DNA of 63,999 nucleotides, filler included, from Intoshia linei (GCA_001642005.1; 5 parts of 5 records of this genome joined end to end with filler, not necessarily neighbours in it); one strand, 5' to 3'. Shown: positions 56,083-62,847, numbered from the whole stretch's first letter. Made by a program: numbers and translations. Notes: a model not told the origin generated them from the sequence alone.

Positions 56083-56433
56083 GCAAACTGAATATGCTTT
56101 AAGGTCATTAGCGGAACATACTCTTCGTAGTGTTCGTGGTGAAACAATTTTATTACATTGATCTTTCATGATATTCGACAATTTAGTACACCCCATTTTT
56201 GGATTCGACTCCAATTCACTAATAATTCTAGTCAAATCAACATTCGAGATAATTTGAGGACGTCCACTACCTTTTTTACGATCGAAAGTTTTATTAATTT
56301 TGATATTTTTTAATATTCATGATATTGTACCTTGATTTTGACCATAAAAGTGTGCCAACCTTTTTTGATTCCAACCATCAGAATATCTTGCTAAAATTTG
56401 AGATTTTTCCTCTTTTCTTAACTGCTTAGTCAT
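56083..56433 (-). mobile_element. Tc1/IS630 transposase N-terminal HTH fragment (one internal stop)
   Basis: MTKQLRKEEKSQIL...GTIS*ILK...RKKGSGRPQII...VSPRTLRR. Confidence 0.8.
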
Positions 56434-56664
56434 GTGCTTGTAAAATAAAAATATTTGAATGTAATTTCGTCCTTTAAAATGGCGGATTAATTGATCTAAA
56501 TAAAGTATAAATTTTTTTGTTTGCTCTAATTTAATTATCCTATAAATATGTGATTTTCCGATAGACCGATTTCAATAAAATAAAATACAAATAATATGCT
56601 GTTACACAATCACAATGTAGGTAGTAAACTTATTTTTTATTTAATTCTACGAAATATCTTATTT

Positions 56665-56890
56665 TTAATATATGCATTCTTTTGGCCATAATTGTATTTG
56701 CATTATTGTTTCCCCTGCTTTTCTGTAAAATTTGTTGAATTCTAGTCTGTTTAGTGTTCGGTTATTGCACTGCCAATTGAGGATTGTTTTTTTAATGATT
56801 GCTATGGAGTCTATTCCTCCGGAAGATTTTAGCCATTCCTTCGCTTTGTCTCCGAGTAAGTGCTTCATGAGTAACAGCTTTGAGTTTACC
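56665..56890 (-). mobile_element. LTR-retrotransposon gag-like fragment
   Basis: LLGDKAKEWL...LEFNKFYRKAGETIMQ resembles the retrotransposon gag L.G.A..W and Q..GE[ST] region. Confidence 0.45.
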
Positions 56891-57019
56891 TTCCATAATA
56901 AATGATGATAAATTTATAAAGAACATTGGATGAAAATTATATTTTTTTTAAAATAATAATAATTTATTAAATGTAGGGAGCTTATAGCTTATTATGTCAT
57001 TGTAGTTTATAATTATAAA

Positions 57020-57395
57020 TTAGTCTTTAAAGTGTTTGTTGAGTAATTTTTTGAAAATTGGTGCGTGGAACGCGGTGACAATTGAAGTGGGCAGCCTATT
57101 CCAGTAATTTACAATTTTATTGAAGAATTGAGTTCGATTGATGGCTGTATTGCATCTGTTTTTGAAAATTTTCCTGATGTTGGATTTTGTTTTCGTTTGG
57201 ATAGTTTTAATTTTGTTACGGTTGATAAATTTGTAAGTCAGACGGAGATCCAGCATATCCCTACGGCTTTTAAAGCTTGTTAGAGGTGAATGTAAGAGTG
57301 ATAGACGACGTAGGAAGAACCGTTGAGCTGATTCCAGTTTTTTTATATTGATTATTGATGTAGGATTCCATAATTGGGTAGCATATTCATATATA
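57020..57395 (-). mobile_element. LINE (CR1/L2/Jockey group) ORF2 3' fragment
   Basis: EYATQLWNP...LESAQRFFLRRL...RRDMLDLRLTYKFI...FFNKIVNYWNRLP. Confidence 0.85.
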
Positions 57396-57725
57396 ATTAA
57401 TGATAGAATCTATCATATTATTAATAAATAATTGTTGATAATATTTAATTATATTTCTCGTTAGACGCGATTTTAATACATAATGATCTATTAATTTATG
57501 AAACATATCGACACAAGTTTTTTTATCTTTATCAAGTTTCATAATACTCTGGCATTTATGACATTATACATGATCATCGTTTTTTTTTAACATTAAGTTT
57601 AGTAATCCAGTTTTCATTAAAATTATATTGATTTTTTGGCATTGTCGATTCAAAATATAAAAAATTTTATCTTATTAAATGACGAAGAAACGAAAGAGAC
57701 GAACTGAATATGAGGGTACTAGATG

Positions 57726-60748: not shown

Positions 60749-60837
60749 AATAATTTTTGTGTATATCTTGATTTTTAACTTTCGTGTTTTTTAATTTTAA
60801 AATTTTTAATTTATTTATAATTGTCCAATTATGTTCT

Positions 60838-60950
60838 TATACTACATATATGTCCTTCATTAATGTAAGGACAACCTTTGTACTTTGATATTTTTTTGTA
60901 TCGAAATCACTGTGAAAGCAAATATCTTTACCAGTATATATGTTGCATAG
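60838..60950 (-). mobile_element. piggyBac transposase fragment
   Basis: NIYTGKD...STKVVLTLMKDI resembles the piggyBac IYTGK...VVL.L motif. Confidence 0.55.
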
Positions 60951-61276
60951 AATGTGTACTACGGTGAAATGTACACATTCCACGGGCAAGTCGTAGAATG
61001 TATACTAGAGTGTTTCAAATAGTAGAAATTTTGCTAGTTTCTCTAAGCCTTAGTAAAAATTAAGCTAGTATTTATATTTAGAGTACGATGTGACTTTTTT
61101 TTTGGAAACGTTGGTGGTCGAGTTGCGCACTGCAAATAAAGATTTTCCTAAATAATATTGAAAAATCTTGTAAATGACTATTCATATTTAGCTACTTTTA
61201 TTATTATTCTTAATTTTATAATGCCAAAGTAATGTATTATTGAATCCGTCATTACCAATGTCACGTTTTCATATAC

Positions 61277-62600
61277 TATTAGGTTGTCCAATGAGTAATG
61301 TCGTTTTATAGACTAAAACTAAAACGTTGATTTTAAGTGTTTATAAATTAATTTAACTCAGGGATGGCAACTTTCTGTGATAGCGGGCCGGATTGTTATA
61401 TAAAATAGATGGGTGGGCCGGACAAATAAATTTTAAGAATTTTTGATTTGAATATATTTATTTTAAATTTTTATTATACATATCAATTCAAAAGATTATT
61501 CAACAAATGCAAATTTGTAATTTACGCCTCTGACAAAAACTGCAACTTGGGCAATATCCCTCATGTATAAAACTTCATAAAGAGCAATTGAATAGTATTT
61601 GAAATTTTCAGTAAACTTTTACAATTGTTCTCTCATGTCAGCAGACATTTCTTCTATTCGTCTAGTTACTCTTCTTCTGGGTAAGTTTATATTTGCAAGC
61701 AAATTTTTTTTCCCGGCCATACTATGTCAGACATTATACAATCTTTAATAAACTCTCTATCAGATACTGGTTTCATGCGTTGAAAAATTAATTTTGAAAT
61801 AACATAACTGGCGATAATATTAATTTTATCTTTACTCATACTATTCGTGTTATTTTTTGGGGGCCCTCTTTTTCAAAAAATAATATTTTACACATCTTAT
61901 ACATCAAATACAGTCGTTTATTCATCCAATATAAATAAAATATGTCTGATCTGATGATTTTGATTGAAATAATTAAATTATCCTGAGAAATATCACTTAA
62001 CCCTGAGCTTTGAATTGATTTGAAAACCCGAAGTCTCAGGGCGAAAATAACGCAGTTGGCAACCCTATTCGTTCACAAAATAGCCTGCTTTTTTTAAACC
62101 ATTTTTTAATTTATTAAATTTGTCTAATCTCAAATTTCTATGAATTTTTTGAAATGTCGATTTATGTTTACTTTCATAATGAAGCTTGATGTTATTCACT
62201 TTATTAACAGCAACATTTTCTTGGCAAATTACACAAACAGGTTTGTTGTAGTGTTCTATAAAATAATATTCTAATTGCCATAATTTTTGGAAAATTCTGC
62301 ATTCAGAGTTCACTTTTCTCTTTTTTATTGTATTGCTCATTTAAGGACGATAAAATATGTTACTATGTAAATTTTTAATCTCTTTCAATAAATTTTAAAT
62401 TAAAACATAATTTTTATAATAAAAATTATTTCGGGCCGGATTTAAACACCTCGCGGGCCGTATGTTGCCCATCCTTAATCTAACTAATAAAAAAATCTCA
62501 GTTAGATTCCACAATTATTTCCATGCGTTGTGGTAGTTTATATATTCCATTAGAATAAAAATTAGTATCTTTATCGAGCAAAAAGTCATCTATGTCCAAT
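61277..62600 (-). mobile_element. mariner 3' remnant interrupted by a hAT insertion
   Basis: TIR TATTAGGTTGTCCAATGAGTAATGTCGTTT at 61277; minus-strand DDFLLDKDTNFYSNGIYKLPQRMEIIVESN at ~62500-62590. Confidence 0.7.
61359..62477 (-). mobile_element. Internally deleted hAT (GTF2IRD2/SPIN-like) element
   Basis: TIR CAGGGATGGCAAC / GTTGCCCATCCTT, GCGGGCCG subterminal repeats, TSD ATTTAACT/ATCTAACT; KKRKVNSECRIFQ..W..EYYF...PVCVIC...HYESKH and RRVTRRIEEMS...YYSIAL...AQVAVFVRGV. Confidence 0.85.
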
Positions 62601-62847
62601 AGGGTGTCCACTTTTTAAACTTTCCGTTGAATTAACAAAAGTATATTTTACTGAGCGTTCGAAATGTAATTTATAACACAGTTACCGATTAAATTTTATC
62701 TAGTTTTGTAATTTCCTTCGCCTATTTTTTTTTTAAACCTTTTTTAAAAACATGACAGAAGAACTTTATTATTGTTTATGTTTTTATACCTAAATACATT
62801 TAAATGATATTTAAATAAGGTAAAATGACTATTAAATACGTATTTTT

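What the first reader, a model, noticed from the sequence alone, without database searches (positions are those of the whole stretch)
56083..62847. Candidate uni-strand (flamenco-like) piRNA cluster: eight TE/virus remnants all on one strand, including a rhabdovirus EVE
Seen: this ~6.8-kb contig has no host gene. It carries decayed coding remnants of Tc1, gag, LINE, Crypton, rhabdovirus N, piggyBac, mariner and hAT, and every one reads on the minus strand. Under a coin-flip null that has probability 2 x 0.5^8 = 1/128; gag and piggyBac are the weaker calls. Known: strand-biased TE fragments define uni-strand piRNA clusters (Drosophila flamenco), and in Aedes non-retroviral EVEs sit in such clusters and yield antisense piRNAs. 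Inference: a plus-strand transcript here would make antisense guides against eight unrelated parasites, including an RNA virus. That would be a heritable antiviral/anti-TE memory locus in an apparently non-arthropod, compact-genome animal.
Basis: partly seen in the sequence, partly recalled or inferred. Interest (0 to 1): 0.85.

Follow-up and report, generated by a model that had tools for sequence, protein, structure and literature searches.

The report
One-way transposon heap with viral fossil
A 6.8-kb piece of the genome of a tiny parasitic marine worm is a heap of broken jumping genes plus a broken gene from a rhabdovirus-like RNA virus, all recognisable ones reading the same way; it is likely an ordinary nested pile, though a role as a small-RNA defence locus remains possible and untested.

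Summary
The contig (56083-62847) is gene-free and packed with decayed mobile elements; protein labels name the host as the orthonectid Intoshia linei. The rhabdovirus call holds: a broken nucleoprotein-like gene is 59-66% identical to a paralog that passes Pfam's Rhabdo_ncap cut-off and whose only PDB matches are nucleocapsid proteins; five other contigs carry paralogs. Five of eight minus-strand calls have database support (Tc1, hAT, N, tyrosine recombinase, mariner), LINE rests on sequence features, gag and piggyBac are unverified; no plus-strand remnant was found, by an insensitive test. Polarity is real (T>A in 20 of 22 windows). The piRNA reading is unproven: one PIWI is listed for the host, but the only strand-informative contig shows a minus-strand (sense) GT-AG intron removed from the recombinase remnant, plus-strand AATAAA is not depleted, and the locus fails flamenco's Gypsy and size features. 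Best reading: nested graveyard with chance polarity (0.45); uni-strand piRNA cluster 0.35. A mollusc precedent for an N-only EVE making antisense piRNAs exists (PMC6085071).

The parts
56083..56616 (-). 5' part of a Tc1-type transposon (HTH region, one in-frame stop at 56317-56319), cut by the contig end
   Evidence: Pfam HTH_Tnp_Tc3_2 E 3.3e-6; frames; related copy with 19 other letters and 7 gaps over 56083-56610 in runs X2 and X3, loose end at 56616
56668..56913 (-). gag-like fragment (unverified)
   Evidence: 82-codon frame; strong T>A skew -0.35; Atlas hits only unnamed clusters, low recognition; family motif recalled
56937..57409 (-). 3' end of a 5'-truncated LINE, inserted into another repeat
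   Evidence: 129-codon frame and tail; DNA run X1 has contigs skipping 56937-57389; flank repeat recurs at 63362-63401; no database hit; motifs recalled
57925..58900 (-). Internally deleted, frameshifted tyrosine-recombinase (Crypton-like) element with short introns at 58431-58467 (37 nt) and 58324-58357 (34 nt)
   Evidence: PHROG 216 integrase on two collinear pieces; both introns GT..AG on minus; 34-nt intron skipped in one X4 contig and in gene model P0001; 5' end recurs at 31569-31646; Crypton name recalled
58966..60790 (-). Decayed rhabdovirus-type nucleoprotein gene (EVE); homology spans 59250-60679, stops at 60601, 60582, 60297, 60114, 59928, 59789 and frame changes near 60600 and 59925; ends inferred
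   Evidence: tblastn of five paralogs, 50-89% identity; stops; P0003 Rhabdo_ncap 35.9 bits over cut-off 26 and PDB nucleocapsids E 0.008; single long DNA unitig 59803-60993
60840..61004 (-). piggyBac-like fragment (unverified)
   Evidence: 55-codon frame; no Pfam or PDB hit; motifs recalled
60963..61120 (.). High-copy non-coding repeat, unassigned (limits approximate)
   Evidence: X1 depth 324 in bin 60829-61054 while the unique unitig ends at 60993
61277..61358 (-). 3' terminal repeat and UTR of the mariner remnant
   Evidence: TA followed by a mariner-like terminal repeat at 61279-61307 (family resemblance recalled)
61359..62477 (-). Internally deleted hAT (SPIN/Charlie-like) element with both terminal repeats and a 7-of-8 target-site duplication, nested just after the mariner stop
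   Evidence: Pfam zf-C2H2_12 over cut-off; ends and duplication; second coding piece 61600-61880 (motifs recalled)
61928..62067 (.). High-copy non-coding element end nested in the hAT
   Evidence: loose ends at 61928 and depth 155-355 in X1; 88% copy at 51666-51746
62486..62599 (-). C-terminal remnant of a mariner transposase
   Evidence: Mos1 chains are the top PDB rows, E 0.038-0.045
62600..62847 (.). End of a high-copy Tc1/mariner-type element that interrupts the mariner; not orientable
   Evidence: loose ends at 62600 in all four runs, depth 137-289 in X1; terminal motif (family recalled)

Best explanation
The contig is a gene-free, nested pile of decayed transposons and one old rhabdovirus-derived nucleoprotein insertion, all recognisable coding remnants on the minus strand, and the shared direction is most likely a coincidence picked out by a genome-wide scan rather than the mark of a plus-strand piRNA precursor. 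Steps: (shown) several pieces are nested or keep their ends - hAT inside mariner with a target-site duplication, a repeat inside the hAT, a LINE inside a repeat - so they arrived by successive insertions; (shown) the N gene is broken and belongs to a family of at least six genomic copies; (inferred) it was reverse-transcribed from viral RNA by a retroelement and integrated long ago; (inferred) the pile persists because it is gene-free and insertions are harmless; (inferred from one contig) the recombinase remnant is still weakly transcribed in its own sense, probably from its retained 5' end, and spliced by the host.
For: Nesting, terminal repeats and duplication. Six stops and two frame changes in N; paralogs on five other contigs of 1.6-49 kb, so N remnants are not confined to this locus. 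One X4 contig (depth 3.8, no other letters over 58358-58468, 53 letters beyond the joint) skips exactly the 34-nt minus-strand GT..AG intron that the gene model P0001 removes; DNA run X1 shows no such joint and gives single-copy depth there. Plus-strand AATAAA 14 against 8.6 +/- 3.1 in shuffles, ratio 1.63, within the 0.72-1.69 of seven control windows. With only six supported calls the coin-flip chance is 1/32, likely to occur somewhere in a fragmented assembly.
Against: Eight of eight (or six of six) is still 20-50 times likelier under an orientation filter than by chance (my estimate). Composition backs the polarity beyond the motif calls (20 of 22 windows; 13 of 16 non-coding segments T>A). 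About eight coding remnants in 6.8 kb against about five seen in the other 57 kb, in mixed directions there. The host has a listed PIWI, Dicer, Drosha and Argonaute. EVEs are enriched in Aedes clusters (133 of 252; 10.1101/2022.08.22.504762). The spliced contig is single, under depth 5, from a run whose kind is not on record, and sense RNA from an element's own promoter does not exclude an antisense precursor.
Confidence: 0.45

Rival explanations
1. Fragment of a uni-strand piRNA cluster: a plus-strand precursor would be cut into Piwi-bound guides antisense to the transposon families and to the rhabdovirus N mRNA, and selection would keep only antisense insertions.
For: Polarity; diverse element classes and an EVE in a gene-free pile; PIWI-like OAF65019.1 listed for the host; related Tc1 copy present in runs X2 and X3 as a possible target; X2 and X3 contigs cover parts of the N remnant with no other letters (59087-59261, 59304-59489, 60227-60396, 59814-59971), direction unknown; mollusc precedent (PMC6085071).
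Against: Minus-strand spliced contig; no AATAAA depletion on plus; only one PIWI, and the HENN-1 column is empty for this host in the same table (read by counting tab-separated columns, and a BLAST miss in a fast-evolving genome is possible); not Gypsy-dominated.
Confidence: 0.35
2. Another orientation filter: the contig would lie inside a long plus-strand intron or UTR where sense insertions are purged, or some neighbours (N, piggyBac-like, gag-like pieces) would have been joined in one direction by reverse-transcriptase template switching, which lowers the number of independent events.
For: In Aedes 543 of 614 nearest LTRs share their EVE's polarity (10.1101/127498); gene model P0006 joins N pieces with gag-like and transposase-like segments on one strand at another locus (motifs recalled, opposite-strand pieces would be invisible); N and the piggyBac-like piece lie on one unique unitig.
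Against: Host introns are short (median 57 nt; PMC6543705); plus-strand AATAAA is not purged; hAT, mariner and the intron-bearing recombinase element moved as DNA, which template switching cannot orient.
Confidence: 0.17
3. Assembly artefact or contamination from the worm's host or a live virus.
For: Junctions across four high-copy repeats are not bridged by any listed contig; GC 29.8% against 25-28% in the other contigs.
Against: Four repeats are shared with gene-bearing contigs of the window; overlapping DNA unitigs tile recombinase-N-piggyBac-like at single-copy depth (that run may be the source sample); N is full of stops and present in DNA; misjoins would scramble, not create, polarity.
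Confidence: 0.03

Closest known systems
[quoted passage not shown]
   Same: Rhabdovirus nucleoprotein-only sequence in the DNA of a marine lophotrochozoan.
   Different: There antisense RNA and 5'U small RNAs were shown; here N is broken, has at least six genomic copies, sits in a polarised TE pile, and no small RNA was seen. Relationship between the two N sequences not tested.
Aedes core piRNA clusters with non-retroviral EVEs (10.1101/2022.08.22.504762 and 10.1101/127498; passages read)
   Same: Rhabdovirus-derived EVE interspersed with co-oriented TE fragments.
   Different: Aedes loci are LTR-dense, often over 50 kb, driven by read-through from an upstream gene, with piRNAs shown; here 6.8 kb, mostly DNA transposons, no upstream context, no piRNA data.
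Drosophila flamenco and flam-like unistrand clusters (PMC10643416; passages read)
   Same: TE fragments on one strand in a gene-free stretch.
   Different: [quoted passage not shown]
Rhabdovirus nucleoprotein family (Pfam PF00945; PDB 2gic, 5ukb)
   Same: Paralog passes the Pfam cut-off and aligns to the N-terminal part of the solved nucleocapsid proteins.
   Different: Very divergent: no relative outside this host among 1.84 billion representatives (6 hits, all I. linei) or in viral contigs; the window copy is a pseudogene with a longer C-terminal frame.

Membership tests
flam-like unistrand piRNA cluster | TE fragments predominantly on one strand | tested here: met
   8 of 8 calls minus, 5 with database support; skew 20 of 22 windows
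flam-like unistrand piRNA cluster | Strand bias driven by Gypsy/LTR content | tested here: not met
   One unverified gag-like piece; the rest DNA transposons, LINE, recombinase element, EVE (definition)
flam-like unistrand piRNA cluster | Locus of tens to hundreds of kb | not testable with these tools
   Contig is 6,765 nt and ends in repeats; no genome held
uni-strand piRNA cluster (general) | Precursor transcribed antisense to the TEs | tested here: inconclusive
   Only strand-informative contig indicates sense splicing; other contigs give no direction
uni-strand piRNA cluster (general) | 24-32 nt, 1U-biased, phased small RNAs from one strand | not testable with these tools
   Only assembled contigs were served
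uni-strand piRNA cluster (general) | Host piRNA machinery (Piwi, Zucchini, Hen1) | not tested
   Literature only: one PIWI-like listed, HENN-1 cell empty, Zucchini not covered (PMC6468455 supplement rows); Tudor-paper supplement unreadable
Rhabdovirus-derived endogenous viral element | Homology to rhabdovirus N | tested here: met
   59-66% identity to P0003, which passes Rhabdo_ncap and matches PDB nucleocapsids; the window pieces alone do not hit Pfam
Rhabdovirus-derived endogenous viral element | Integrated in host DNA, not a live virus | tested here: met
   Held by DNA run X1, joined to flanking TE pieces on single unitigs, six stops
Crypton (eukaryotic tyrosine-recombinase transposon) | Tyrosine recombinase gene interrupted by spliceosomal introns | tested here: met
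   PHROG integrase hits (weak) and two GT..AG introns, one seen removed
Crypton (eukaryotic tyrosine-recombinase transposon) | Closer to Crypton than to DIRS recombinases | not tested
   Homolog search gave none; name rests on recalled motifs and on the introns

The most novel reading that the evidence does not exclude
An extremely reduced parasitic animal with a single Piwi and no listed Hen1 keeps a one-strand piRNA cluster that has trapped five transposon classes and the nucleoprotein gene of an unknown, deeply divergent rhabdovirus lineage that repeatedly invaded its germline (six or more copies), giving heritable antisense guides against an RNA virus in an orthonectid.
Probability: 0.3. 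Interest if true: 0.7.

Novelty: new member of a known kind. Interest (0 to 1): 0.4.

Why it matters
The secure result is a fossil record of rhabdovirus infection in Orthonectida: a family of N remnants with no close relative outside this genome in the collections searched. One paralog is already auto-labelled 'Nucleocapsid protein' in UniRef and viral-type RdRP genes were noted in this host (PMC6396948), but no paper on rhabdovirus EVEs in it turned up (the genome paper was not held). If the contig also makes antisense piRNAs, it would show that EVE-based antiviral memory survives in one of the most reduced animal genomes, and it gives a precise, cheap target for a first small-RNA study of this group.

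Tried and rejected
No RNA holder listed for the contig; this blank is no evidence. Parts without cover in X2-X4 (depth in 13, 15 and 15 of 30 bins; e.g. the high-copy bin 60829-61054 at 324 in X1 but 0-0.9 in X2/X3) hint that these runs are RNA-like but were not used as evidence; whether X2-X4 are RNA was not checked on host genes. AlphaFold of P0002 with 8 rows failed (pLDDT 36.6) and was not searched. Atlas search of P0002 gave only TPR/HEAT look-alikes, rejected. PDB searches with the window N frame, P0002 and the profile A2 gave nothing meaningful. No viral or metagenome locus for N or the LINE piece; no homolog for the recombinase piece or in plasmids. Rfam: 0 matches. No long internal repeats. 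A domesticated, protein-coding N gene was rejected (six stops). CpG depletion is not contig-wide (0.91 against 0.92-0.97; 0.64 in the EVE only). Earlier-findings look-ups by genome and by sequence were empty.

Full report
What the stretch is. The window is five contigs joined by N spacers; the finding is the whole fourth contig, 56083-62847, 6,765 nt. The longest frame (59103-59786, minus) is identical to the start of a public gene model labelled Intoshia linei, on a contig of the same 6,765 nt, so the host is this orthonectid. Four repeats of the contig recur in gene-bearing contigs of the window, which ties it to the same genome. The only two public gene models on it are stitched from the remnants below: there is no host gene.

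The eight calls. All eight stretches read on the minus strand. Pfam on all 132 frames of 26 aa or more (73 plus, 59 minus) gave two hits at E<=0.02, both minus: a Tc3-type HTH and the SPIN-DOC zinc finger. The recombinase pieces hit one phage integrase profile in collinear order; the mariner piece has Mos1 as top PDB rows at E about 0.04. The LINE piece has a 129-codon frame and a tail but no database hit; gag-like and piggyBac-like pieces have no named hit and rest on recalled motifs. The test for plus-strand remnants is insensitive, and 2,510 nt are non-coding or unassigned. Base composition supports polarity independently: AT skew -0.119 against at most 0.071 elsewhere, T>A in 20 of 22 windows and in 13 of 16 non-coding segments, though many of these are the ends of the same elements.

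The viral piece. A full search of 1.84 billion representatives with paralog P0002 gave 6 hits, all labelled I. linei, on six contigs including this one; a profile search found the same set. P0003 passes Pfam Rhabdo_ncap (35.9 bits, cut-off 26) and all 5 of its PDB rows are nucleocapsid proteins (E 0.008-0.04); P0002 hits the family weakly (E 0.001). The window copy matches these paralogs at 50-89% over 59250-60679 and has six stops and two frame changes. It lies in DNA run X1 on unitigs that also hold flanking TE sequence. It is an old endogenous element, one of a family. Folding failed.

How the pile was built. The hAT keeps both ends and a 7-of-8 target-site duplication and sits just after the mariner stop, with the mariner's terminal repeat beyond it; a high-copy element is nested in the hAT; another cuts the mariner at 62600; the LINE sits in a repeat whose other copies lack it (family names of terminal repeats recalled). 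These are successive insertions, so a coin-flip null is fair for the DNA elements. It gives 1/128 for eight, 1/32 for six, uncorrected; with an assumed 30-100 comparable piles such a contig is expected somewhere with probability 0.21-0.96.

RNA evidence. Six runs were listed and four laid, all as assembled contigs, three of unrecorded kind. X2 and X3 cover parts of the N remnant without other letters, direction unknown. One X4 contig (depth 3.8) skips 58324-58357, which is a 34-nt GT..AG intron on the minus strand, the same one that gene model P0001 removes; X1 shows no such joint and single-copy depth. This is the only strand-informative datum and it indicates sense transcription of the recombinase remnant. 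It is weak: one contig under depth 5, and the element keeps its own 5' end, so it does not exclude a plus-strand precursor. Whether X2-X4 are RNA was not checked on host genes. Plus-strand AATAAA is not depleted (14 against 8.6 +/- 3.1; controls 0.72-1.69-fold).

Host machinery, from papers only. PMC6468455 (passages and supplement rows) lists one PIWI-like protein, Dicer, Drosha, Pasha and one Argonaute for I. linei and leaves HENN-1 empty. PMC12147562 (passages, section 10) reports reduced Tudor sets in endoparasites including Orthonectida; its supplement, which may hold Piwi counts, could not be read. PMC6396948 (passages, section 13, 7 supplements with no hit) notes viral-type RdRP genes in this host without naming the family in text. 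PMC6543705 (passages) gives a median intron of 57 nt. PMC7943196 holds the name only in a reference.

Comparison. flam-like loci are Gypsy-driven and hundreds of kb (PMC10643416, passages): not met. Aedes clusters hold 53% of EVEs, mostly antisense (10.1101/2022.08.22.504762, passages), and EVEs share polarity with neighbouring LTRs through capture (10.1101/127498, passages). The nearest case is a probable N-only rhabdovirus EVE in the dog whelk with antisense 5'U small RNAs (PMC6085071, passages). Searches for rhabdovirus EVEs or piRNA work in this host found none (listings only, except as cited). Three earlier AI reports describe one-way TE piles in other genomes without RNA proof; they are leads, not support, and show that the layout recurs.

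Verdict. The anatomy and the EVE are real; the piRNA role is open. My odds: nested graveyard with chance polarity 0.45, uni-strand piRNA cluster 0.35, other orientation filter 0.17, artefact 0.03 (judgement, not computed). Novelty: new member of a known kind. Interest 0.4.

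Noticed in passing
P0003 (gene model on a 49,425-nt contig): Its residues 1-147 match the C-half and 152-361 the N-half of the window's N: tandem head-to-tail copies or a circularly permuted insertion.
   Followed up: partly
P0006 (gene model on a 24,950-nt contig): Joins two N pieces with gag-like and transposase-like segments on one strand (motifs recalled): a possible second co-oriented pile or an LTR-linked capture.
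   Followed up: no
window 60746-60790 (-): An A-rich stretch beginning ACG just upstream of the first ATGs of the N frame loosely recalls the start of a rhabdovirus leader (recalled, untested); if so the insertion came from the genome end rather than from N mRNA alone.
   Followed up: no
window 58966-59330 (-): Open frames continue past the part homologous to most paralogs: a long N tail or the start of a second viral gene.
   Followed up: no
window 23857-25998 (+): Intact 714-codon hAT-derived frame (DUF4371 over cut-off, weak hAT dimerisation) inside the span of a tetraspanin gene's exons (23171-23410, 26990-27199): a young insertion or domesticated gene, in sense orientation.
   Followed up: partly
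window 14703-15249, 27599-28425, 43522-44382, 47732-48963: A roughly 900-nt non-coding repeat family in at least five copies, both orientations, 77-88% alike.
   Followed up: no
window 18799-19098 (-), 32494-32742 (-), 32905-33087 (+), 33355-33534 (+): TE remnants in gene-bearing contigs occur in both directions (RVT_1 E 4e-15, weak hAT dimerisation hit; the pogo-like and one hAT-like call are recalled).
   Followed up: partly
window 51749-52411 and 55339-55641: Short tandem arrays of diverged units.
   Followed up: no
window 8127-12710, 1194-5789, 12816-18211, 35365-35943, 38481-42047: Ordinary host genes: leucyl-tRNA synthetase, RPGRIP1-like C2, striatin/WD40, BTB, adaptin.
   Followed up: no
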